From the NCBI GenBank assembly GCA_035295165.1, contig DATGJN010000085.1, forward strand, positions 34,707-98,706: a stretch of 64,000 nt of DNA. Direction: 5' to 3'. Source of the DNA: a bacterium (GTDB lineage: Bacteria; Sysuimicrobiota; Sysuimicrobiia; Sysuimicrobiales; Segetimicrobiaceae). Positions 9,255 through 18,634 of this stretch are shown piece after piece. The position numbers were made by a program, and so were the translations under genes. Positions within the stretch are counted from its first letter, which is position 1; every line of letters starts with the position of its first letter. The notes below the pieces were generated by a model that was not told the origin of the DNA, made no database searches, and saw only the letters and a program-made list of their open reading frames with translations.

Positions 9255-10910
9255 GTGGGCGGCGGTAACAAGACGCGCTCCGTTCTGTATCTCGTCATCA
9301 CGGCACTGCTCGTCCTCGCGATCCCCGGGTGGTATGTGAATGCGACCGCTACGGTGGCTCACGCCCAGACCTCCGGCAACGGTGGCGGCGGCGGCGCGGG
9401 TGGTGGCGCCGGCAACGGCAACGGCTTGCCCGGTAACCCCGGGACCACCGTAGTGGGTGGCGGGACCGGCGGCTCCGGAGGGGCTGCGGGTACGACCGGC
9501 GGTAGCGGCGGGCACGGCGGCGCCGGAGGCGCGGGCGGCAGCAACAACACCAATACCTCCGGCAACGGCGGTAACGGCGGCGCGGGCGGCAGCGGCAGCA
9601 ACAGCAACAGCGACGGTGGCAACGGTGGTAGCGGCGGGGCCAGCTCAGGAGGCAGCGGCGGCACCGGTGGTGCCGGCGGAGCGAACAACGGGAACGGCGG
9701 CGCCGGCGCCGCCGGCGGCGCGGGCGGCAGTTTCAACACCAACAACTCAGGCAACGGCGGCGCGGGTGGCGCCGGCGGAGCCAGTCAGAATAGCACTGGC
9801 AATACCCCGGCCGGTGGCAATGGCAACGGGGGCGCCGGTGGCACCGGCGGCGCGAATTCCGGTGGCAGCGGCGGGACCGGTGGCGGGGGTGGCACCGGGA
9901 ACGGCAACGCCGGCGCGGGTGGCGCCGGCGGCAACGGCGGCAACGTCGGCGGCACTGCCACCGGCGGCAACAGCAATAACTCCGGAGACGGCGGTGCCGG
10001 CGGGGCCGGTGGGACCGGCGGCATCAACAACGGCGACGGTGGAAGCGGCGGGACTGGCGGAGCCGGCGTCGGCGGGAGCAGCGGCGGGACCGGCGGCACC
10101 GGTGGCGCCGGCAATGGGACCGGCGGCGCGGGCGGCACGGGCGGCGCGGGTGGTACGGCCAACAACACCGCCTCCGGCAACGGCGGTGCGGCTGGCGCCG
10201 GCGGAGCCGGCGGCAATACGAACGGCGGCGGCGGCGCGGGCGGTCTCGGCACGACAGTCGCCGGCGGTAACGGAGGAGCGGGTGGTAGCACGAACGGGAC
10301 CGGTGGGGCCGGCGGCGCCGGTGGTGCCGGCGGGAACGCGAACATCGGTCAGACGACCGGGCCAGGGGCGCTGGGCGGCTCTGGGAATGGCGGCGCCGGC
10401 GGCAAGGGCGGTGCCGGTGGAAGCAGCAATGGCATCGGTGGGACCGGTGGGGCTGGCGTAAACGGCGGGGCCGGCGGGAACAGCAACGGTGACGGTGGAA
10501 GCGGCAGCGCCGGCGGCAGCGGCGGCAACAGCAACGCCAACGGCTCCGGCAACGGTGGCGCCGGCGGCAATGCCGGTGGTGGTGGTAGCAACAACGGCAC
10601 AGGTGGTAACGGCGGGGCGAGCGCCGGCGCGGCCGGCGGCAGCAACAACGGCAACGGCGGCGGCGGCGGCGCGGGCGGTGGCGGCGGCAACAGCAACACC
10701 AACGGCTCCGGCAACGGTGGGGCCGGCGGCACGGGAGCGACGGGTGGCAACAGCAACGGCAATGCGTCCGGCTCAGCCGCTGGGACGAACGAGAACGGCA
10801 ACGGCGGCGCGGGCGGTGGCGGTGGTACCGGCGGGAACAATAACGGCGGCAACTCCGGCAACGGCGGCGCGGGCGGTAATGGCGCTCCAGGCGGGAACAA
10901 CAACAACTAA
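9255..10910 (+). CDS. secreted glycine/asparagine-rich (Gly-Gly-X)n repeat protein, PGRS-like
   Basis: GTG start with a perfect AGGAGG 8 nt upstream, and an N-terminal signal peptide (LVLAIPGWYVNATATVAHA-Q). About 500 aa follow of GGAGGxGG / GNGG / NSNGNG repeats with almost no hydrophobic or aromatic residues. A perfect hairpin terminator follows. Confidence 0.75.
   Translation: MGGGNKTRSVLYLVITALLVLAIPGWYVNATATVAHAQTSGNGGGGGAGGGAGNGNGLPGNPGTTVVGGGTGGSGGAAGTTGGSGGHGGAGGAGGSNNTNTSGNGGNGGAGGSGSNSNSDGGNGGSGGASSGGSGGTGGAGGANNGNGGAGAAGGAGGSFNTNNSGNGGAGGAGGASQNSTGNTPAGGNGNGGAGGTGGANSGGSGGTGGGGGTGNGNAGAGGAGGNGGNVGGTATGGNSNNSGDGGAGGAGGTGGINNGDGGSGGTGGAGVGGSSGGTGGTGGAGNGTGGAGGTGGAGGTANNTASGNGGAAGAGGAGGNTNGGGGAGGLGTTVAGGNGGAGGSTNGTGGAGGAGGAGGNANIGQTTGPGALGGSGNGGAGGKGGAGGSSNGIGGTGGAGVNGGAGGNSNGDGGSGSAGGSGGNSNANGSGNGGAGGNAGGGGSNNGTGGNGGASAGAAGGSNNGNGGGGGAGGGGGNSNTNGSGNGGAGGTGATGGNSNGNASGSAAGTNENGNGGAGGGGGTGGNNNGGNSGNGGAGGNGAPGGNNNN
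9370..10900. repeat. degenerate tandem GGC/GGN-rich coding repeats (low-complexity DNA)
   Basis: About 1.5 kb of imperfect ggcggcgccggcgg-type repeats produces long ORFs in most frames on both strands (Gly-rich, Ala-rich and antisense Pro-rich). Confidence 0.8.
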
Positions 10911-10931: not shown

Positions 10932-10966
10932 GGGGCGGGGCATGCGACTCGTGCATGCCCCGCCCT
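10932..10966 (+). terminator. rho-independent terminator
   Basis: A perfect 13-bp GC stem (gggcggggcatgc / gcatgccccgccc) with a 7-nt loop, followed by tcgtcgttgttgtg, directly after the stop of the Gly-rich gene. Confidence 0.75.
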
Positions 10967-11115: not shown

Positions 11116-14100
11116 GTGAAGACTCCTTCGACCGACGACGAGCACAACCCGCGGACACCGCTCTCCATGCTCATCGTCGGAGACCGCCCAACCGACAGTG
11201 CCCTGGTGGTCGACAAACTTCGCCAGCACGGGTTCGACGTCGAGTGGCACCGCGTGGAGCACGAGTCGGACTACCTGGCACGCCTCAGCCCTGAACTGGA
11301 TGTCATCGTGGTCGACGACGGCCTGCTGCAGGTGGACGCCCGCCGCGCGATCGCGCTGGCGAAGGACCGCAACCTCGATGTGCCGATCGTCGTGGCCGTG
11401 GCGGCGCTCGGAGACGAAGCCGAGGCGTTGGTGAGCCGGTGGGGCGCCACCGATTGCGTGGTCAAGCCACACCTGCCGCTGCTTGCGCACGTGGTGGAAC
11501 GAGCGCGGACCCACCGACGCCTGCGACACGAACAGACGCAACTCCGCCGACGCTTGGACGCGTTCGTCGAAAATAGCTACGACGCCCTCGCGTTGATCGG
11601 TGACGATCTGAGAGTTCGGTACGCGAGCCCCTCGATTCGCCGCGTCATGGGCATCGAACTCAACGATTTCGTCGGACACGAAATTCTGGAGTTCGTGCAC
11701 GCCGATGACCACGAGCAGGTCCGCCGCGCCTACGACGCGCTCCGCCGCGATCCGACCCGCACGCAGGCGTCGCTCATCAGGCACCGACACGGAGATGGGT
11801 CCTGGCGCTTGGTGGAGATCACCCGCCGCAACCTCCTCGCCGAACCCAGCGTGCGCGCCATCGTGGTCAACTTCCGGGACGTGACGGAGCGCGAAACGGC
11901 GCAGAACGCGCTGCAACAAAGCGCATCGCGGTATCGAGGTTTGTTCGAGAGGGTGCCCATCGGACTGTACCTGACCCGCACCAACGGGACGTTCGTGGAC
12001 GCCAATCCAGCGTTCCTCGAGATGCTCGGGTATCCGGACCGCGCCACCCTTCGAGGAATCAACGCGACCTCGCTGTACGTCGACCCGGGCGCCCGCGAGC
12101 GGCTCACCGAGGCGCTCGAACGCGACGGTGTCGTGACGGGGTGGGAAAGCGCGCTCCGTCGGCGGGACGGCACGATCCTCTGGGGACGAGCGAACGTGCG
12201 CGCCGTTCACGACCCGACCGGCGAGGGGGACGGCCTCGAAGGCGCCATCATCGATATCACCGACCAACGCGCCGCCGAGACCGCCCTGCGGGACAACGAG
12301 CAGCGTTTCCGCGCATTGATCGAACACGGTTTTGATATCATCCTGCTCCTCGACCGACGCGGCATCATCCAGTACGCCAGCCCCTCCGCCGAGCGCGTCC
12401 TCGGCTACGAGCCCGACGCTCTCCTCGGCCGCGACCGCCTCGAGCTCGTCCACCCCGACGACCGCGCCGAACTGCGGCATCGGTTTGCGAGCCTGGTCGA
12501 GCACCCGGACGGGCAGGCGTTCACGCAAGCTCGGCTGCGGCACCGGGACGGCACGTGGCGCTGGACGGAGTCGGTGGCGACCAACCTGCTTCATGATTCC
12601 AGTGTGCAGGCCGTGGTGGCGAACTACCGCGACATCACCGTGCGAAAGTTGGCAGAGGAAGAGAACCAGCGACGTGCGGCACACCTCGAGACGATCAACG
12701 CGATCGTGGCGGCCGCCGTGTCGGCGCGCGACCTGGGGCAACTGCTGGAGCACACGGTCGACCTGACGCTCCACGCGCTGGGGCATACGATGGGGGGCAT
12801 CTGGATCGGGACGGAACATCGGGGCAGCGGCATGTCGGCGGACGTGGGCCCGTCGATCCTGCGGGCGGCGGCGTCGCTGGGGCAGGTCCTTGACGCCTCG
12901 GAGGCCGTCGCGGACGCGCGTGCGCCCGACGCGCACGGGTTGGCATCCGTAATGAAGGGCCTCGGCATTCTCGCCTGGATCGCCGCGCCTATCCGGGCCG
13001 GGGGACGCGCGATCGGGGGCATCGCCGTGGCGTCACCGGTGCCGTGCGCGTGGCGCCCGGACGAGACTGCGCTCGTGGAGACCGTGGGACGGCAGATCGG
13101 CGAGGCGGCCGAGCGGCTGGATCTGTTGCAACGCGCCGAACGGCGCACGGCGGAGTTGTTGGCGGTCACAGACCTCGGCCGCCGGCTCCGCGAGGCGGCA
13201 AGTGTGACCGACATGTACCCCATCATCGTCGAACACGCCATGCAGGTGCTCGCGAGTGAACACGGAGCCCTCGCGCTCTTGAACGAAGACGAAGAGTCCT
13301 TCACGCGGGTGTACGCGAGGGGGGTCTCAACGGAACCGCCCGGATCGACGTTCCCCGCGGCCGGCAGTCGATCGATGGAGGTTGTGCGAACGGGCATCCC
13401 GCGTGTGGCCAAAGATATCGGCGAGGAGCAGCGTCCGCCGTGGATGGATCACTTCAGCTACCGAGACTTCGGCCCGTACCTCGTGGTGGCGGTGCGATCC
13501 GAAGCGGAGAGCATCGGGACCCTCACGCTGCTCCGACGGAAGACCGGCCAGGATCGATCGTTCAGCGAGGACGACGTGCGCGTGCTGATGGGGATTGCCG
13601 AAATCGCCGGCTCGGCCATCCGGCGAGGACGCCTGCAACAAAGCCTGGAGCAATCGTACATCGAGATGGTGCTCGCGCTAGCCCGGGCCGTGGACGCCCG
13701 GGACAGCTACACCGGCGACCACAGCGAGCGCATCGCCGCACGAGCCGTCGCAACGGCGCGAGCGCTCGGATGCACCGACGATGAGACACAGACCATCCAT
13801 TGGGCCGCGTTGCTGCATGACATCGGCAAGCTCAGCGTGCCCGATCAGATCCTCAAGAAGCCCAGCCCGCTCACGGCGGCCGAGTGGGATGTCATGCGCG
13901 AGCATCCCACGATCGGCGAACAGATCTTGCGGCCGATCGAACGGATGCATGGGGTCGCCGCGATCATTCGCCACCACCACGAACGATGGGATGGTACGGG
14001 CTATCCCGACCGTCTGCAGGGCGACGAGATCCCGCTCGGGGCCCGTATTCTCGCGGTGGCCGACGCCTACAGCGCCATCATCGATACTCGAGCGTACGAC

Positions 14101-15288
14101 GCGGGCAGGCCCAAGAACGAGGCGATCGCGGAGATCCGCCAGTGCGCCAGCACGCAGTTCGATCCCGCCGTCGCCGACGTCTTCTGCCGTGTGATCGAGC
14201 ACGCCGACGCGGCGATCGTCCCGGTCGCGGAGATGGCCTCTGCGGGCAATGAGTCCATCCGATCACTGGCCTCGGCGGTGGTACAGCCGTTTCAGCAAAA
14301 CCGGCACCTCCGCCGCGCCGCCCCGGCGGTGGCGGACGTGGCACAACGACTCCTGCGGCCCCTCGATCTCACGGCCGTGCTCGAGGCGATCCTGAGCCAG
14401 ATCCAGAGTGTGTTCGGGTATCCGATCTGCGGCGTGCTTCTGCTGGATGAGCGGACCCGAGAGCTGCGCGTGGCCGCCCAGCGCGGGTTCGATCCCGATG
14501 TCGTGACCGGACTGCGGCTCCGGGTCGGCGAGCAAGGGATCGCCGGCTGGGTCGCGCAGCGGGGACGGTCCTACTACGCGCCTGACGTTACCCTGGATTC
14601 TCTGTACGTCGCGGGGTCATCGTCCGCGCGGTCGAACGTCGCGTTTCCGCTGATGGTCGACGACCGGACAATCGGTGTCCTGGACGTCGAGAGCCCGAGC
14701 GTCGACGCGTTCCCGAAGGAAACCCGCGAATTCCTCGCGACGTTCGCGGTCCTCGCCGCGCTTGCCATTCTCCGCGCCCAACGGGACGAGAATCTCAGCG
14801 AGCTCGCGCGCACCGACGGGTTGACCGGCCTCGCGAACCATCGGGCGATCCTGCAGGATCTCGAGCGCGAGATCGTACGCGCCCGCCGCAGCGGCCACCC
14901 CGTGTCGGTGGCGCTCGTAGAGATCGATGGGTTCAAGCGGCTCAACGACAAGTTCGGTCACCTGCAGGGCGATCTGGTGCTGCGGGAGGTGGCCGACGTG
15001 CTCCGCCGGCATTCTCGCGCCGGCGATCTCGTCGGGCGGTTCGGCGGCGACGAGTTCGTGCTGGTGCTGCCCCAGGCGACAAAGAACGTGGCCGCACAGA
15101 TCGTGGAGCGAGTGCGGGGGCACGTCGAGGAGATCCGCGTCCCGGGCAACGAGCGCACGTTGAGCGTCAGCATCGGACTGGCCGCCCATCCCGCCGACGG
15201 CGACGATCCGGACGGTCTTCTGGAATCGGCAGATCACGCCATGTATCAGGCGAAGCGCAACGGCGGCAACCGCGTGTGCGTAGCCTAA
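11116..15288 (+). CDS. multidomain c-di-GMP signalling protein: REC-like – 3x PAS – 2x GAF – HD-GYP – GAF – GGDEF
   Basis: A 1390-aa ORF. N-terminal receiver-like fold (LIVGD...DVIVVDDG...CVVKP). Three PAS blocks. GAF domains. An HD-GYP domain (HDIGK ... HHERWDGTGYP). A C-terminal GGDEF domain with intact RxxD I-site and GGDEF motif (RAGDLVGRFGGDEF). Confidence 0.9.
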   Translation: MKTPSTDDEHNPRTPLSMLIVGDRPTDSALVVDKLRQHGFDVEWHRVEHESDYLARLSPELDVIVVDDGLLQVDARRAIALAKDRNLDVPIVVAVAALGDEAEALVSRWGATDCVVKPHLPLLAHVVERARTHRRLRHEQTQLRRRLDAFVENSYDALALIGDDLRVRYASPSIRRVMGIELNDFVGHEILEFVHADDHEQVRRAYDALRRDPTRTQASLIRHRHGDGSWRLVEITRRNLLAEPSVRAIVVNFRDVTERETAQNALQQSASRYRGLFERVPIGLYLTRTNGTFVDANPAFLEMLGYPDRATLRGINATSLYVDPGARERLTEALERDGVVTGWESALRRRDGTILWGRANVRAVHDPTGEGDGLEGAIIDITDQRAAETALRDNEQRFRALIEHGFDIILLLDRRGIIQYASPSAERVLGYEPDALLGRDRLELVHPDDRAELRHRFASLVEHPDGQAFTQARLRHRDGTWRWTESVATNLLHDSSVQAVVANYRDITVRKLAEEENQRRAAHLETINAIVAAAVSARDLGQLLEHTVDLTLHALGHTMGGIWIGTEHRGSGMSADVGPSILRAAASLGQVLDASEAVADARAPDAHGLASVMKGLGILAWIAAPIRAGGRAIGGIAVASPVPCAWRPDETALVETVGRQIGEAAERLDLLQRAERRTAELLAVTDLGRRLREAASVTDMYPIIVEHAMQVLASEHGALALLNEDEESFTRVYARGVSTEPPGSTFPAAGSRSMEVVRTGIPRVAKDIGEEQRPPWMDHFSYRDFGPYLVVAVRSEAESIGTLTLLRRKTGQDRSFSEDDVRVLMGIAEIAGSAIRRGRLQQSLEQSYIEMVLALARAVDARDSYTGDHSERIAARAVATARALGCTDDETQTIHWAALLHDIGKLSVPDQILKKPSPLTAAEWDVMREHPTIGEQILRPIERMHGVAAIIRHHHERWDGTGYPDRLQGDEIPLGARILAVADAYSAIIDTRAYDAGRPKNEAIAEIRQCASTQFDPAVADVFCRVIEHADAAIVPVAEMASAGNESIRSLASAVVQPFQQNRHLRRAAPAVADVAQRLLRPLDLTAVLEAILSQIQSVFGYPICGVLLLDERTRELRVAAQRGFDPDVVTGLRLRVGEQGIAGWVAQRGRSYYAPDVTLDSLYVAGSSSARSNVAFPLMVDDRTIGVLDVESPSVDAFPKETREFLATFAVLAALAILRAQRDENLSELARTDGLTGLANHRAILQDLEREIVRARRSGHPVSVALVEIDGFKRLNDKFGHLQGDLVLREVADVLRRHSRAGDLVGRFGGDEFVLVLPQATKNVAAQIVERVRGHVEEIRVPGNERTLSVSIGLAAHPADGDDPDGLLESADHAMYQAKRNGGNRVCVA

Positions 15289-15438
15289 CGGACTCCCTCG
15301 AGCGCATCGATCGGCGTAACAAGTTCATCACCTCTCGCGTCGACCGACATCCAAACGCCCCGTCCGAGGTTATTCATGCGTGAACCACGACAGAGAGTGC
15401 GCGCCTCTCTGATTCCGCCACACAAGGAGGCACCGCCC

Positions 15439-15645
15439 ATGCGTCAACTGGTTGCAGCGATCCTGGTGGGGGGCGCGCTCTCGACGAGCATGTCCGGAGC
15501 CTTTGCCAACGACATCGCGGAGCGGTCGTTCCCGCGGCACAACGGGTACGTCGCAGCGGAGGACCAGAACCAGGCCGCGCCGATGACCCCGGTCGACAAC
15601 CGGGAACCGCCCAACTACCCGACGTCGACGAGCCAGAACCAGTAG
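15439..15645 (+). CDS. small exported hypothetical protein (68 aa)
   Basis: The internal ATG has AAGGAGG 8 nt upstream. Signal peptide MRQLVAAILVGGALSTSMSGAFA, followed by a hydrophilic tail. Confidence 0.5.
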   Translation: MRQLVAAILVGGALSTSMSGAFANDIAERSFPRHNGYVAAEDQNQAAPMTPVDNREPPNYPTSTSQNQ

Positions 15646-15745: not shown

Positions 15746-15837
15746 AGTAGGTGAACTCGGTCTCTCCCGCAGCACCGATTCGCGCGCTCGGAGGTGGCCC
15801 CGCATTGAACGGAGATCCCACGGATCGTCGCCGCCAG

Positions 15838-16341
15838 GTGGCGGTGCTGGCGGCGTCTCCTCTCGCCCCGATCCCCTCGGGCGCTCGCCGTCTCGCCGTC
15901 AACGGAACCGTCCACAGCGTTCGCCTCCCGCCGGATACCCCGCTGCTGTATGTCCTCCGAGACGAATTGCATCTGCACGGACCGCGCTTCGGCTGCGGGC
16001 TCGGTCAGTGCGGGGCGTGTACGGTCCTGCTCGACGGCACCGCGGTGCGGTCATGTACCCTCCCCGTTTCCGCCGTCGGCGACCTGCCGGTCACGACCCT
16101 GGAGGGCCTGGGTACCCCCGATCGGCCGCATGCGGTGCAGCAGGCGTTCATCGAGGAACAGGCGGTGCAGTGCGGGTACTGCATCAACGGCTGGATCATG
16201 ACGACGGTGTCGCTCCTGGCGAAGACGCCCAATCCGAGCGACCCCCAGATTCGGTCCGCCTTGTCGGGCTTGATCTGCCGCTGCGGCGCGCACATGCGGA
16301 TCTTCAGGGCGGTCAGACGCGCCGCTCAACAGCGGAGCTGA
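15838..16341 (+). CDS. (2Fe-2S)-binding subunit of xanthine dehydrogenase-family aldehyde oxidoreductase (IorA/CoxS-like)
   Basis: It has the two cluster motifs CGxGxCGAC (GCGLGQCGACTV) and QCGYCxxG...CRCG. The start is uncertain (GTG at 15751 or 15838). Its stop lies 8 nt before the large subunit. Confidence 0.8.
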   Translation: MAVLAASPLAPIPSGARRLAVNGTVHSVRLPPDTPLLYVLRDELHLHGPRFGCGLGQCGACTVLLDGTAVRSCTLPVSAVGDLPVTTLEGLGTPDRPHAVQQAFIEEQAVQCGYCINGWIMTTVSLLAKTPNPSDPQIRSALSGLICRCGAHMRIFRAVRRAAQQRS

Positions 16342-16348
16342 GGGAGAG

Positions 16349-18634
16349 ATGCGCATGCGGCGCCCATGGGCTCTCTCTCGACGCCGGTTCCTCAAGACCT
16401 CAGGTGCGATCGTCGTCGCCTTCGCGATGCCGCCGGCGGTCCTTGGCTCGCACCCGGACGCCGCCGGGGCCGCGCCGGCTCGAAACGCCTCGGCGGACCC
16501 GGCACAGTTGGATTCGTGGTTGGCGATCGCTGGGAACGGCAGCGTCACGGTGCTCACAGGCAAGGTCGAGCTCGGGATGGGCGTGTCGACAGCCTTTGCG
16601 CAGATCGTGGCCGAGGAACTCGACGTCCCCGTCCGGGCGGTTTCGGTCGTGATGGGAGACACCGCGAGGACACCCGATCAGGGGGGCGTAGGCGGAAGTA
16701 CGTCGATCTCGATCGGCGCCAAGCCGGTCCGGCAGGCGGCCGCGGAGGCCCGGCGGGTGTTGTTGGACCTTGCGTCGGCCCGCCTCGGGGCGCCGGCCGC
16801 CCAGCTCTCCGTCCGCGATGGCGTCGTACGGCGGGTGGACGACCCGACCCGCACCGCGTCGTACGGGGAGCTGATCGGTGGACGACACTTTGATGTCGCG
16901 CTCACAGCCGGCGGTGGAAGCTACACGCTCGGTGTGACGGGGAGCGCCCGGCCGAAATCTCCGGACCAGTACACGATCGTCGGCACCTCGGTGCCGCGCA
17001 TTGACATCCCTGACAAGGCGACCGGCCGGTTTACGTATGTGGTCGACGTGCGTGTCCCCGGTATGGTGCACGGCCGGGTCATCCGTCCTCCGGTCCCCGG
17101 GGCAACACTGCTCCGCGCCGAAGACGCGCCAGGCGTGCCGGGGTTGATCAAGGTCGTGACGAGAGGAAACTTCGCCGGGGTCGTGGCCGAAACCGAGTGG
17201 GGCGCGATTCAGGCGGCGCGAACGCTTACCCTGAAGTGGTCCATCACGACCGCGACCTGGCCAGCCATGGCCGACCTGTACGCTGCGATGTGGGCCATGC
17301 CCGCCCGCACACGCCGGGTGATGGCACAGGTCGGCGATGTGGACGGGGCCTTGGCGTCGGCGGGTCGCACGATTCAGGCCCGCTACGAGTGGCCCTTCCA
17401 AGCGCACGCGATGATGGGCCCCGGTTGCGCGGTGGCCGAGGTTCGTGATCGAGGGGCCACGGTTTGGTCAAGTACGCAGCATCCGCACCAACTCCAGCGG
17501 GGGATAGCCGAACTACTCGGCTTCCCGGCCGACGCCGTGCATGTGATCTGGGTGGAAGGCGCCGGCTCGTACGGCCGCTCCGGGGCCGAAGACGTGGCGG
17601 GTGACGCCGCCCTGCTGTCGCAGGCCGTGGGCCGGCCGGTGCGCGTGCAGTGGATGCGAGCAGACGACACCGCGTGGGACCCCAAGGGACCGCCGGTCGT
17701 CATGGCGGTCCGCGCGGGCTTGGACGAGCGAGGGACCATCGTCGCCTGGGACTACCTGGCGCGCGCGTTCTCCGGCAGCGGGATTCCGCCGAGCCCGGCC
17801 ACCGCGGGGAACCTGCTCGCGGGTCAGTTGACGGGACGGTCGGCGGCAGGCGTCGACGTCCCCACGACCGTGCAAGAAAATTACGCGTTCGCGGCCAAAC
17901 GCAAAGTCGGCGAGATCGTCCCCTGGCCCCAAGACGGCTCGCCGCTGCGCACGTCCAACCTGCGGGCTCCCAGCCAGCCGGCCACCACGTTTGGCGGGGA
18001 GTCGTTCGTGGACGAGATCGCGGCCGCCGTCGGGGTCGATCCGCTGGAGTTCCGCCTGCGCTATCTCCGGAACCCGCGCGACCTCGCGGTGGTGCGAGCG
18101 GCCGCCCAGCGTGCCGGGTGGACCTCGCGACCGTCGCCGCAATCGGGCATCTCGCGCTCGGGCCTGGCCACGGGCCGCGGCATCGCCTACGCGCCGCGCG
18201 GCAACACCTTGGTTGCGACCGTCGCCGAGGTGGAGGTCAACCAGGCGACCGGACAGGTCCACGTGACTCGCCTGGTGATCGCCCACGACTGCGGGTTGAT
18301 CATCAACCCGGATGGCCTCCTCGGGACGATTGAGGCAAACGCGGTGCAGTCGACGAGCCGGTCCCTCAAGGAGGAGGTACACTGGGGTCCGTCCGGCGTG
18401 ACCAGCGTGGATTGGGTCACGTACCCGATTCTTCGGGCGCCGGAGATCCCCGATCACATCGAGGTCGTCCTGATCAACCGCCCGGATCTGCCGCCGTTTG
18501 GAGCCGGGGAACCTGCGTCGGTGACGACGGCGCCGGCCATTGCCAACGCGATCTTCGACGCGACGGGCGCGCGGTTACGCACCGTCCCGTTCACGCCTGC
18601 GCGGGTCAAGACCGCGCTTCAACACCGCGCCTAG
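16349..18634 (+). CDS. molybdopterin-binding subunit of xanthine dehydrogenase-family aldehyde oxidoreductase (IorB-like), TAT-exported
   Basis: 761 aa with a twin-arginine signal (SRRRFLKTSGAIVVAF), GAGGGA upstream, and the aldehyde-oxidase/xanthine-DH a/b hammerhead and MoCo-binding blocks. Confidence 0.9.
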   Translation: MRMRRPWALSRRRFLKTSGAIVVAFAMPPAVLGSHPDAAGAAPARNASADPAQLDSWLAIAGNGSVTVLTGKVELGMGVSTAFAQIVAEELDVPVRAVSVVMGDTARTPDQGGVGGSTSISIGAKPVRQAAAEARRVLLDLASARLGAPAAQLSVRDGVVRRVDDPTRTASYGELIGGRHFDVALTAGGGSYTLGVTGSARPKSPDQYTIVGTSVPRIDIPDKATGRFTYVVDVRVPGMVHGRVIRPPVPGATLLRAEDAPGVPGLIKVVTRGNFAGVVAETEWGAIQAARTLTLKWSITTATWPAMADLYAAMWAMPARTRRVMAQVGDVDGALASAGRTIQARYEWPFQAHAMMGPGCAVAEVRDRGATVWSSTQHPHQLQRGIAELLGFPADAVHVIWVEGAGSYGRSGAEDVAGDAALLSQAVGRPVRVQWMRADDTAWDPKGPPVVMAVRAGLDERGTIVAWDYLARAFSGSGIPPSPATAGNLLAGQLTGRSAAGVDVPTTVQENYAFAAKRKVGEIVPWPQDGSPLRTSNLRAPSQPATTFGGESFVDEIAAAVGVDPLEFRLRYLRNPRDLAVVRAAAQRAGWTSRPSPQSGISRSGLATGRGIAYAPRGNTLVATVAEVEVNQATGQVHVTRLVIAHDCGLIINPDGLLGTIEANAVQSTSRSLKEEVHWGPSGVTSVDWVTYPILRAPEIPDHIEVVLINRPDLPPFGAGEPASVTTAPAIANAIFDATGARLRTVPFTPARVKTALQHRA

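What the first reader, a model, noticed from the sequence alone, without database searches (positions are those of the whole stretch)
11116..15288. 1390-aa REC–PAS x3–GAF x2–HD-GYP–GAF–GGDEF protein combining c-di-GMP synthesis and HD-GYP hydrolysis
GGDEF–EAL tandems are common. A single polypeptide carrying an apparently intact HD-GYP phosphodiesterase (HD..HHERWDGTGYP) and an intact GGDEF with I-site, plus nine sensory domains and a receiver, is much rarer. It sits directly downstream of the GGX-repeat secreted protein, which fits a surface/biofilm switch, although the two genes are separated by a terminator. The receiver-like domain lacks the usual acidic pocket before the DD (IVGDRPTD), so it may be an atypical or pseudo receiver.
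Basis: partly seen in the sequence, partly recalled or inferred. Interest (0 to 1): 0.6.

Follow-up and report, generated by a model that had tools for sequence, protein, structure and literature searches.

The report
Multi-sensor HD-GYP plus GGDEF signalling enzyme
This is a real 1390-residue cytoplasmic signalling protein from an uncultured soil bacterium that carries a maker (GGDEF) and a likely breaker (HD-GYP) of the messenger c-di-GMP; this domain combination is already catalogued and widespread but has never been tested biochemically.

Summary
The ORF at 11116-15288 (+) is real and identical in two independent assemblies. That gives six sensor domains, not nine.

The GGDEF domain has every catalytic residue, the guanine-specific Asp and an RxxD I-site. 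The HD-GYP domain has all its metal ligands and the GYP motif. It has two departures: Tyr at the third-metal Glu position, which marks the binuclear type, and R-A-Y-D in place of the guanine-recognising RxY[K/R] motif. "Intact" therefore holds for the metal site but not for the specificity motif.

The receiver has the REC fold and keeps D23, D67 and K117. It has lost the first acidic residue (Gly), the Thr/Ser (Val) and the aromatic switch (Cys).

The HD-GYP–GAF–GGDEF core is not unusual. It aligns end to end in at least 59 of the best 150 50%-identity clusters, in about 40 species genomes across several phyla, and in a probable second copy in the same MAG. It is named in the literature (Seshasayee 2010; Galperin & Chou 2021). 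I found no biochemical study of any such hybrid.

Linkage to the Gly-rich repeat gene is not conserved.

Verdict: a new member of a known kind, of modest interest.

The parts
11116..15288 (+). Whole gene: 1390-aa REC-like/PAS x3/GAF x2/HD-GYP/GAF/GGDEF protein. The start is GTG at 11116; the alternative ATG at 11167 gives 1373 aa.
   Evidence: Residues before M18 align with relative P0255, which favours the GTG start.
11170..11469 (+). Atypical receiver (REC-like) domain, aa 19-118. G22-D23 replaces the acidic pair. D67 is at the phospho-acceptor position. V95 replaces Thr/Ser and C114 replaces the aromatic switch. K117 is kept.
   Evidence: Pfam scores 15-20 bits, below the cut-off of 30.2. 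PDB REC hits reach E 3e-4. Alignment A2 with CheY and relatives. AF2 model pLDDT 86 with a (beta-alpha)5 fold; top Foldseek hits are all REC domains.
11566..11895 (+). PAS domain 1 (aa 151-260), a paralogue of PAS3.
   Evidence: PAS_4, 52 bits. (38% identity to PAS3, E 3e-27).
11929..12270 (+). PAS domain 2 (aa 272-385), of a different PAS type.
   Evidence: PAS_9, 43.7 bits. (only weak similarity to PAS1 and PAS3).
12304..12648 (+). PAS domain 3 (aa 397-511), the counterpart of the single PAS of relative P0255.
   Evidence: PAS_3, 61 bits..
12724..13116 (+). GAF domain 1 (aa 537-667).
   Evidence: GAF, 48.6 bits.
13195..13626 (+). GAF domain 2 (aa 694-837), joined to HD-GYP by a long predicted helix.
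   Evidence: GAF_2, 53.7 bits. (helix at core residues 2-42).
13678..14172 (+). HD-GYP domain (aa 855-1019). Metal ligands are H869, H901-D902, H930, H954-H955 and D983; the GYP motif is 962-964. Y865 sits at the PmGH E185 position. K915-P-S replaces KPG. R992-A-Y-D995 replaces RxY[K/R].
   Evidence: HD_5, E 1e-40. (alignments to 5z7c, 4mcw and 4r8z). (family alignment). (roles of these residues in the literature).
14209..14295 (+). Poorly conserved, low-confidence linker (aa 1032-1060) between the HD-GYP cassette and the GAF-GGDEF cassette.
   Evidence: pLDDT below 50. (linker identity 25-38% against 53-74% for the domains in close relatives).
14362..14772 (+). GAF domain 3 (aa 1083-1219), followed by a roughly 30-residue helix leading into GGDEF.
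   Evidence: GAF_2, 63.5 bits. (helix at core residues 381-411). (nearest solved GAFs are the PtsP and fRMsr types; no ligand can be inferred).
14809..15273 (+). GGDEF domain (aa 1232-1386). Key residues are D1271, K1274, N1277, D1286 (guanine-specific), I-site R1301-A-G-D1304, R1308 and G1310-G-D-E-F1314.
   Evidence: E 2e-45. (alignment to PleD). (these residues are invariant in the family).
10932..10966 (+). Terminator-like hairpin (15-bp stem, 11 G-C pairs) plus T-rich tail. It separates the upstream repeat-protein gene from this gene.

Best explanation
The gene encodes a soluble, cytoplasmic, multi-input enzyme of c-di-GMP turnover. It belongs to the HD-GYP-GAF-GGDEF hybrid family.

**Shown by sequence**
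- The C-terminal GGDEF domain has everything a diguanylate cyclase needs to make c-di-GMP from two GTP, plus an RxxD I-site for product inhibition.
- The central HD-GYP domain has the full two-metal ligand set and the GYP motif. It lacks the Glu that holds a third metal.

**Inferred**
- The HD-GYP domain opens a cyclic dinucleotide to the linear form. The most likely reaction is c-di-GMP to pGpG. Its base-recognition motif is non-canonical (RAYD), so its affinity or specificity may differ from the norm.
- The protein is built as two cassettes, GAF2-helix-HD-GYP and GAF3-helix-GGDEF, tied together by a flexible, poorly conserved linker.
- In the expected parallel dimer, each GAF domain sets the activity of its own output through its helix.
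- The N-terminal array (atypical receiver, three PAS domains, GAF1) biases the balance, so the protein switches between net synthesis and net degradation rather than running a futile cycle.
- The input signals are unknown. The receiver may or may not still be phosphorylated.
For: - **Domains.** All domains score above Pfam cut-offs except REC.
- **GGDEF.** It aligns to PleD with D327, N335, D344, R359xxD362, R366, GGEEF and R390 equivalents all present. These residues are invariant across 19 family members.
- **HD-GYP.** It aligns to PmGH, PA4781 and V-cGAP3 with the H, HD, H, HH and D ligands and GYP present.
- **Third metal.** Tyr865 sits at the PmGH E185 position. In the literature this position separates binuclear, pGpG-producing enzymes from trinuclear, GMP-producing ones.
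- **Constraint.** The HD-GYP domain is as conserved as the GGDEF domain: 59-73% against 53-66% identity in the near clade, and 40-49% against 39-47% in distant members. This argues that both are under selection.
- **Structure model.** The AF2 model of the core has pLDDT 83. It shows long helices entering HD-GYP and GGDEF, and a linker with pLDDT below 50 at aa 1032-1060.
- **Separate modules exist.** Stand-alone GAF-GGDEF proteins (about 334 aa, 58-60% identical) and GAF-HD-GYP proteins (45-48% identical) are found, which fits a two-cassette design.
- **Variable front end.** Relatives keep GAF-HD-GYP-GAF-GGDEF constant while the N-terminal sensors vary: REC-PAS-GAF, PAS-PAS-GAF, GAF-GAF or a membrane domain.
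- **Location.** No transmembrane segment is present.
- **Prior inference.** PMC2952852 drew the same inference for 72 of 74 such hybrids.
Against: - No enzyme of this hybrid family has been assayed in any paper I could find.
- The guanine-recognising Rxx(K/R) motif reads RAYD in this protein. Changes of that Lys to Gln or Asn shift HD-GYP enzymes to cGAMP.
- In the closest relatives this position is D, N, T, S, A, G or R. Most also have HQE instead of HHE, and two have RD instead of HD. Phosphodiesterase function may therefore be relaxed or altered in this clade.
- Reciprocal regulation, dimer geometry and all input signals are inferred, not shown.
- In many GGDEF-EAL hybrids only one domain is active.
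Confidence: 0.55

Rival explanations
1. The protein is a diguanylate cyclase only. Its HD-GYP domain no longer turns over c-di-GMP and serves as a regulatory, nucleotide-binding or protein-docking module. This would parallel inactive RpfG-family HD-GYP domains and the degenerate domains common in GGDEF-EAL hybrids.
For: - The specificity Lys is replaced by Asp (RAYD) and KPG reads KPS.
- The clade is variable at this position. Most members have HQE instead of HHE, and P0122 and P0123 have RD in place of HD.
- The literature notes that one domain of a hybrid is typically inactive. It also notes that HD-GYP domains act through protein-protein contacts, including with GGDEF proteins.
Against: - This particular protein retains every metal ligand and the GYP Tyr.
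- Its HD-GYP domain is at least as conserved as its GGDEF domain.
- HdgA, which has Ser at the same motif position, still hydrolyses c-di-GMP.
Confidence: 0.2
2. The HD-GYP domain is active but acts on a different nucleotide than the one the GGDEF domain makes, for example 3',3'-cGAMP or another cyclic dinucleotide. The protein would then couple two messenger pathways, writing c-di-GMP while erasing another signal, instead of cycling one messenger.
For: - Rxx(K/R) recognises guanine. Swapping the hydrogen-bond donor for an acceptor (Gln or Asn) reprogrammes HD-GYP enzymes to cGAMP (bioRxiv 10.1101/600031).
- Here the residue is Asp995, which is an acceptor. One close relative (P0121) has the published RxxN signature.
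- The best PDB sequence match is the cGAMP phosphodiesterase V-cGAP3, 5z7c.
Against: - RxxD has not been tested experimentally.
- V-cGAP3 itself carries canonical RPYR, so that match says nothing about specificity.
- The position is variable in the clade rather than fixed, which looks more like relaxed constraint.
- The fused GGDEF has the guanine-specific Asp1286 and is not a Hypr type.
- No cGAMP synthase is known in this organism.
Confidence: 0.12
3. The protein is mainly a phosphodiesterase. Its GGDEF domain acts as a GTP or c-di-GMP sensor that tunes the HD-GYP domain, as degenerate GGDEF domains do for EAL domains in PdeA-type proteins.
For: The precedent comes from GGDEF-EAL hybrids, as general knowledge of the field, and is alluded to. 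An I-site is present that could bind c-di-GMP.
Against: The GGDEF domain is not degenerate. All catalytic residues are present and invariant in the family. PMC2952852 argues that HD-GYP proteins do not need a degenerate GGDEF for signal control.
Confidence: 0.08

Closest known systems
HD-GYP/GGDEF hybrid proteins. [quoted passage not shown] 2010 (PMC2952852). An example is Sphaerobacter thermophilus P0193.
   Same: The HD-GYP, GAF and GGDEF domains come in the same order and align in one stretch over the whole 570-aa core at 34-67% identity. The GGDEF is intact and PAS partners are frequent.
   Different: The N-terminus here is a cytoplasmic array of atypical REC, 3 PAS and 2 GAF domains, not a membrane MASE9 domain. 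No full-length orthologue other than the protein itself was found among 5.8 billion proteins. RAYD replaces RxYR. None of these hybrids has been characterised biochemically, as far as I could find.
P0255 (1143 aa, metagenomic) and P0125 / HLJ60999.1 (989 aa, probably from the same MAG).
   Same: P0255 has the architecture REC-PAS-GAF-GAF-HD-GYP-GAF-GGDEF and P0125 has REC-PAS-GAF-HD-GYP-GAF-GGDEF. P0255 is 57% identical over query residues 394-1390. P0125 is 60% identical over the core.
   Different: P0255 has a canonical receiver (40.9 bits; ED, D, S, Y, K) and only one PAS domain. P0125 has Glu at the phospho-acceptor position. The query has two extra PAS domains and a receiver with G, V and C substitutions.
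PmGH from Persephonella marina (GAF-HD-GYP, PDB 4MCW), the structural reference for HD-GYP c-di-GMP phosphodiesterases.
   Same: A GAF domain precedes the HD-GYP domain. The H, HD, H, HH and D ligands and the GYP motif align (E 1e-32).
   Different: PmGH has E185 (trinuclear site; product GMP) and R314/K317. The query has Tyr865 and R992/D995.
Bifunctional GGDEF-EAL enzymes, such as SesC of Thermosynechococcus, CdgB of Azospirillum and DcpA of Agrobacterium.
   Same: Synthesis and degradation of c-di-GMP sit on one polypeptide with sensor domains deciding the balance. This is the working model by analogy.
   Different: The degrading domain is the unrelated HD-GYP fold. It lies upstream of GGDEF, and a GAF domain sits between the two. 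This is an analogy of function, not membership.
PmxA-type cGAMP phosphodiesterases: HD-GYP domains with RxxQ or RxxN (bioRxiv 10.1101/600031).
   Same: The fourth position of the Rxx(K/R) motif is non-canonical and carries a hydrogen-bond acceptor.
   Different: The residue here is Asp, not Gln or Asn. This variant is untested. The domain is fused to a guanine-specific GGDEF.
RpfX/RpfG-type response regulators (REC-PAS-HD-GYP, for example DVU2933) and aspartate-less or atypical receivers.
   Same: An N-terminal receiver is followed by PAS/GAF domains and an HD-GYP domain.
   Different: The receiver scores below the Pfam cut-off and lacks three conserved residues. No kinase gene lies nearby. 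An extra GAF-GGDEF cassette follows.

Membership tests
GGDEF diguanylate cyclase (catalytically competent) | GGDEF domain above the Pfam/TIGRFAM cut-off | tested here: met
   PF00990 scores 155 bits against a cut-off of 23.8. TIGR00254 scores 158 bits against 37.4.
GGDEF diguanylate cyclase (catalytically competent) | GG[D/E]EF motif plus equivalents of PleD D327, K332, N335, D344 and R366 | tested here: met
   G1310-GDEF, D1271, K1274, N1277, D1286 and R1308 align to PleD. They are invariant in alignment A1.
GGDEF diguanylate cyclase (catalytically competent) | I-site RxxD five residues before GGDEF (product inhibition) | tested here: met
   R1301-A-G-D1304 is followed by LVGRF and then GGDEF. 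It aligns to PleD R359-A-I-D362.
GGDEF diguanylate cyclase (catalytically competent) | c-di-GMP synthesis from GTP | not testable with these tools
   This needs an enzyme assay.
HD-GYP cyclic-dinucleotide phosphodiesterase | HD-GYP-type HD domain (Pfam HD_5) | tested here: met
   PF13487 scores 139 bits against a cut-off of 27.2, covering 3-170 of 170 profile positions.
HD-GYP cyclic-dinucleotide phosphodiesterase | Two-metal ligand set H...HD...H...HH...D and the GYP motif | tested here: met
   H869, H901-D902, H930, H954-H955, D983 and G962-Y-P964 align to PmGH H189, H221-D222, H250, H276-H277, D305 and Y285.
HD-GYP cyclic-dinucleotide phosphodiesterase | Glu at the PmGH E185 position (third metal; hydrolysis through to GMP) | tested here: not met
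   Tyr865 occupies this position, as in V-cGAP3. This places the domain in the binuclear subgroup described.
HD-GYP cyclic-dinucleotide phosphodiesterase | RxY[K/R] guanine-recognition motif (c-di-GMP specificity) | tested here: not met
   The motif reads R992-A-Y-D995. The role of the motif is described.
HD-GYP cyclic-dinucleotide phosphodiesterase | KPG motif (main-chain contacts to the second base) | tested here: inconclusive
   The motif reads K915-P-S917. The contacts are made by main-chain atoms, so Ser may be tolerated.
HD-GYP cyclic-dinucleotide phosphodiesterase | Hydrolysis of c-di-GMP | not testable with these tools
   This needs an enzyme assay with Fe2+ or Mn2+.
HD-GYP-GAF-GGDEF hybrid family | Colinear HD-GYP, GAF and GGDEF aligning in one stretch with other members | tested here: met
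   Single-stretch alignments over about residues 2-570 of the core occur in 59 of the best 150 representatives. More than 100 clusters cover 92-100% of the query. About 40 species genomes carry it.
HD-GYP-GAF-GGDEF hybrid family | MASE9 membrane sensor at the N-terminus (the subfamily named in the literature) | tested here: not met
   No transmembrane segment is present. The N-terminus is REC-like, PAS and GAF domains. The protein belongs to the wider family, not to the MASE9 subfamily.
Two-component receiver (REC) domain | Receiver (beta-alpha)5 fold | tested here: met
   The AF2 model has pLDDT 86. Foldseek top hits are all REC domains, with TM 0.76 to LvrB 8vc9. Caveat: the alignment used for the model was built from REC-bearing relatives.
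Two-component receiver (REC) domain | Pfam Response_reg above the gathering score | tested here: not met
   The score is 15.2 bits in the whole protein and 19.8 bits for the isolated N-terminus, against a cut-off of 30.2.
Two-component receiver (REC) domain | Conserved residues equivalent to CheY D12/D13, D57, T87 and K109, plus the Y106 switch | tested here: inconclusive
   D23 (D13), D67 (D57) and K117 (K109) are kept. G22 (D12), V95 (T87) and C114 (Y106) are changed. Phosphorylation is neither excluded nor expected to signal in the canonical way.
Two-component receiver (REC) domain | Cognate histidine kinase encoded nearby | tested here: not met
   No HisKA or HATPase gene lies within 10 kb on either side. 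No REC, PAS or H-box match occurs elsewhere in the 64-kb window (the probes were crude). An orphan kinase elsewhere in the genome is not excluded.

The most novel reading that the evidence does not exclude
The HD-GYP domain, with Asp in place of the guanine-recognising Lys/Arg (R-A-Y-D), may not hydrolyse the c-di-GMP made by its own GGDEF domain. It may instead act on another cyclic dinucleotide such as 3',3'-cGAMP. The polypeptide would then be a cross-pathway converter, writing one messenger while erasing another. That would also explain why HD-GYP and an intact GGDEF can share one chain without a futile cycle.
Probability: 0.12. Interest if true: 0.65.

Novelty: new member of a known kind. 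Interest (0 to 1): 0.3.

Why it matters
HD-GYP/GGDEF hybrids have been listed in censuses since 2001-2010, and nearly all are predicted to keep both activities. I found no report that any has been purified and assayed.

This protein and its relatives are numerous in soil Acidobacteriota, Chloroflexota and unclassified lineages. They would be a reasonable entry point for asking how a cell avoids a futile cycle when the maker and breaker of c-di-GMP are fused.

The two-cassette layout (GAF-helix-HD-GYP, flexible linker, GAF-helix-GGDEF) gives a testable design. The variable Rxx(K/R) position in this clade gives a concrete substrate-specificity question.

For genome annotation the finding is ordinary. 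The public name 'PAS domain S-box protein' is correct but uninformative. 'Sensor diguanylate cyclase / HD-GYP phosphodiesterase' would be more useful.

Tried and rejected
- **Full-length protein search.** It was swamped by PAS-rich kinases. It showed only that no full-length orthologue exists apart from the protein itself. The C-terminal core had to be searched separately.
- **NCBIfam hits.** The hits to 'Tlr1612 family c-di-GMP phosphodiesterase' (195 bits against a cut-off of 1600) and 'NosR family' (173 against 400) are partial-domain matches far below cut-off. The Tlr1612 match covers only the PAS region, and the Tlr1612 paper adds nothing relevant.
- **Search with the N-terminal 150 aa.** It found only an 88-aa chimera-like fragment, P0241.
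- **Rfam scan of the whole window.** It gave no hit, so no c-di-GMP riboswitch links the neighbouring genes to this enzyme.
- **Functional link to the Gly-rich repeat protein.** Rejected. A terminator lies between the genes, and no such gene sits next to four relatives.
- **Sensor ligands.** I looked for LOV, cNMP-GAF, bilin-Cys and FixL-type motifs and found none that is meaningful. The nearest solved GAF domains give no ligand inference.
- **Taxonomy.** Public names say only 'bacterium'. The species-genome scan had no hit above 36% identity over the full core, so the lineage stays unassigned.
- **Technical dead ends.**
  - The afdb50 fold library was not available.
  - CheY could not be included in the AF2 alignment.
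  - P0123 and P0131 have no contig on record.
  - Two reviews (PMC3591986 and PMC5309910) are not held.
- **Literature searches for an assayed HD-GYP/GGDEF hybrid.** They found none. This is absence in the held open-access library only.

Full report
**Observation**

The window holds a single uninterrupted ORF at 11116..15288 on the + strand, 1390 aa with a GTG start (translation). The same protein is called on two independently assembled metagenome contigs, ENA ERZ27279680 k141_1870033 (110,571 bp) and JGI 3300027986 Ga0209168_10000273. It is deposited as HLJ60709.1, 'MAG TPA: PAS domain S-box protein [bacterium]', at 1390 aa. It is therefore neither an assembly accident nor a pseudogene.

JGI and ENA start the gene at the ATG at 11167 (1373 aa). 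Residues before M18 align with the N-terminus of relative P0255, so I keep the GTG start.

**Domain architecture**

Pfam on the whole protein and on separate segments gives the following, in protein residues:

| Domain | Residues | Note |
|---|---|---|
| REC-like | 19-118 | 15-20 bits, below the 30.2 cut-off |
| PAS 1, 2, 3 | 151-260, 272-385, 397-511 | above cut-off |
| GAF 1, 2 | 537-667, 694-837 | above cut-off |
| HD_5 (HD-GYP type) | 855-1019 | E 1e-40 |
| GAF 3 | 1083-1219 | above cut-off |
| GGDEF | 1232-1386 | E 2e-45 |

The title of the finding is correct. 'Nine sensory domains' is not: there are six, plus the receiver-like domain.

- There is no transmembrane segment. The best 19-residue hydropathy is 1.58, inside a GAF core.
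- PAS1 and PAS3 are paralogues (38% identity, E 3e-27). Both resemble the single PAS of relative P0255.
- PAS2 is of another type.
- The three GAF domains are not recent duplicates of each other.

**The cyclase half**

The GGDEF domain aligns to PleD at E 3e-33. The matching residues are:

- D1271, K1274 and N1277;
- D1286, the guanine-specifying Asp, so this is not a Hypr-type enzyme;
- the I-site R1301-A-G-D1304, five residues before G1310-G-D-E-F1314;
- R1308, and the equivalent of PleD R390.

These residues are invariant in a 19-member family alignment. By sequence, this is a competent, product-inhibited diguanylate cyclase.

**The phosphodiesterase half**

The HD-GYP domain matches V-cGAP3 (5z7c, E 2e-42), PmGH (4mcw, 1e-32) and PA4781 (4r8z, 3e-27). 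The metal ligands H869, H901-D902, H930, H954-H955 and D983 are present, as is G962-Y963-P964.

There are three departures from the PmGH reference.

1. **Third-metal site.** The position of PmGH E185 is Tyr865. According to Galperin & Chou, this Glu separates trinuclear enzymes, which hydrolyse through to GMP, from binuclear ones, which stop at pGpG.
2. **KPG motif.** It reads K915-P-S. The contacts there are made by main-chain atoms, so this may not matter.
3. **Base-recognition motif.** RxY[K/R] is described as largely responsible for c-di-GMP specificity. Changing its Lys to Gln or Asn reprogrammes enzymes to cGAMP. Here it reads R992-A-Y-D995.

The exceptions among hybrids cluster in the query's own clade: D, D, N, T, S, S and A, plus G in P0255. 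Most clade members also have HQE instead of HHE, and P0122 and P0123 have RD instead of HD.

Against reading this as decay, the HD-GYP domain is as conserved as the GGDEF domain. Identity is 59-73% against 53-66% in the near clade and 40-49% against 39-47% in distant members. In addition, HdgA with Ser at the same position still cleaves c-di-GMP. The metal site is intact; the substrate preference is an open question.

**The receiver**

The N-terminal domain has the receiver fold.

- PDB sequence hits to many REC domains reach E 3e-4.
- The AF2 model has pLDDT 86 with a (beta-alpha)5 topology. All top Foldseek hits are REC domains, and TM is 0.76 to LvrB. The model's alignment was made from REC-bearing relatives, which favours this outcome.

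Alignment with CheY and relatives gives this mapping:

| CheY residue | Query residue | Status |
|---|---|---|
| D12 | G22 | lost |
| D13 | D23 | kept |
| D57 | D67 | kept |
| T87 | V95 | lost |
| Y106 | C114 | lost |
| K109 | K117 | kept |

The closest relative, P0255, has a fully canonical receiver (40.9 bits). The probable paralogue P0125 has Glu at the acceptor position. REC plus PAS1 is only 35% identical to P0255, against 57% for the rest of the protein.

No histidine kinase gene lies within 10 kb. No REC, PAS or H-box match occurs elsewhere in the window. The precise picture is that the phosphorylation chemistry residues are mostly kept, while the Thr/Tyr switch residues are lost.

**How common is the architecture**

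A search with the C-terminal 570 aa returned more than 100 clusters covering 92-100% of the query at 34-67% identity. All had HD_5, GAF and GGDEF.

An exhaustive HMMER scan of 1.84 billion representatives listed 150 best hits. In 59 of them, a single alignment runs across the whole core. The list was cut off at E 1e-86 while such hits were still appearing.

In one-genome-per-species data, the full core occurs in about 40 species. These are mostly Acidobacteriota of many orders, with Chloroflexota, Limnocylindria and others, at 29-36% identity. Sphaerobacter thermophilus DSM 20745 has one, P0193.

P0125 is HLJ60999.1. It comes from the same accession series and the same JGI sample as the target. 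The organism therefore probably has at least two such genes; this is an inference from the accession numbers.

The N-terminal sensor array varies among relatives, while GAF-HD-GYP-GAF-GGDEF stays constant.

**Literature**

- Seshasayee et al. 2010 counted 74 HD-GYP proteins with a GGDEF domain, 7% of HD-GYP proteins. All but two had intact GGDEF motifs and 32 had PAS domains. The authors concluded that nearly all probably keep both activities.
- Galperin & Chou 2021 explicitly list a 'MASE9-HD-GYP-GAF-GGDEF' architecture and a REC-PAS-PocR-GGDEF-HD-GYP protein from Methanocella.
- Deinococcus DR_A0342 has been noted since 2001.
- GGDEF-HD-GYP tandems are mentioned as routine in PMC6205966.
- I found no paper reporting enzyme assays of any such hybrid. 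This covers the held open-access library only.

**Layout and likely mechanism**

The AF2 model of the core has pLDDT 83 and pTM 0.69. It shows, in order:

1. a 40-residue helix leading from GAF2 into HD-GYP;
2. a low-confidence segment at aa 1032-1060 (pLDDT below 50);
3. GAF3;
4. a roughly 30-residue helix into GGDEF.

The linker is also the least conserved part, at 25-38% identity in close relatives. Stand-alone GAF-GGDEF proteins (about 334 aa, 58-60% identical) and GAF-HD-GYP proteins (45-48% identical) exist.

I therefore read the protein as two sensor-output cassettes on a flexible tether, topped by a variable N-terminal input array. The sequence features and the predicted layout are tool results. 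Dimerisation, reciprocal control of the two activities, and pGpG as the product are inferred by analogy. The analogies are GAF-HD-GYP (PmGH), GAF-GGDEF cyclases and bifunctional GGDEF-EAL enzymes.

**Neighbourhood**

- Upstream lies a 551-aa secreted-looking Gly/Asn/Ala-rich repeat protein (9255-10910), followed by a 15-bp G+C-rich hairpin with a T-rich tail (10932-10966).
- Downstream lie a 68-aa ORF with a strong Shine-Dalgarno sequence, then Fer2/molybdopterin oxidoreductase genes.
- The neighbourhoods of four relatives share neither the repeat protein nor any signalling partner.
- No riboswitch is present in the window.

The suggested 'surface/biofilm switch' link to the repeat protein has no support beyond the general role of c-di-GMP.

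**Verdict**

The protein is a new member of a catalogued, widespread, but biochemically untested hybrid family. Its own peculiarities are an expanded PAS array, a receiver that has lost its switch residues, and an RAYD base-recognition motif.

The most novel reading not excluded is that the HD-GYP domain acts on a cyclic dinucleotide other than c-di-GMP. I put this at about 12% probability.

Interest is 0.3.

Noticed in passing
window 9255-10910 (+): A 551-aa protein begins with a signal-like hydrophobic N-terminus (SVLYLVITALLVLAIPGWYVNATATVAHAQ). About 500 aa of Gly/Asn/Ala/Ser/Thr low-complexity GGxGG / NGNGG repeats follow. It has no Pfam hit on record, and its composition resembles PE_PGRS proteins. 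It ends just before the strong hairpin at 10932-10966.
   Followed up: partly
P0241 (88 aa, JGI, 1107-bp contig): This protein matches the query's receiver (around aa 31-64). It then jumps directly to the end of GAF3 ('DDRTIGVLDVESPNVDAVPKGTREF...FAVLAALAIL'). It is either a large internal deletion allele in a related strain or a chimeric assembly.
   Followed up: no
L083/L084 8001-10970 (P0125 = HLJ60999.1), compared with window 15805-18634 and L001 1-976: A 989-aa paralogue-like REC-PAS-GAF-HD-GYP-GAF-GGDEF gene comes from the same sample and accession series as the target. Its receiver has Glu at the phospho-acceptor position. Both copies lie near Fer2 + molybdopterin oxidoreductase genes and an MR_MLE enolase-family gene. 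This hints at an old segmental duplication.
   Followed up: partly
L086 4821-5993 and 6001-7773: In one relative (P0135) the gene is split. A 390-aa GAF-only ORF ends 8 bp before a 590-aa HD-GYP-GAF-GGDEF ORF. This is either a frameshift or a genuine two-gene arrangement.
   Followed up: no
Alignment A1: P0122, P0123 and most close relatives: P0122 and P0123 have RD instead of the catalytic HD and an insertion in the RxY motif. Most near-clade members have HQE instead of HHE. Three distant hybrids (P0193, P0210 and P0237) have Asn instead of the guanine-specifying Asp of the GGDEF domain (GxxxGN).
   Followed up: partly
window 15425-15645 (+): A 68-aa ORF with no Pfam hit follows the target 150 bp downstream. 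It is preceded by a canonical AAGGAGG Shine-Dalgarno sequence. No terminator-like hairpin was found between it and the target gene.
   Followed up: no
L085 11883-13868 (-) and L087 3783-5696 (+): An FtsH protease gene lies next to the hybrid gene in two different relatives (P0134 and P0133). This is not the case in the window.
   Followed up: no
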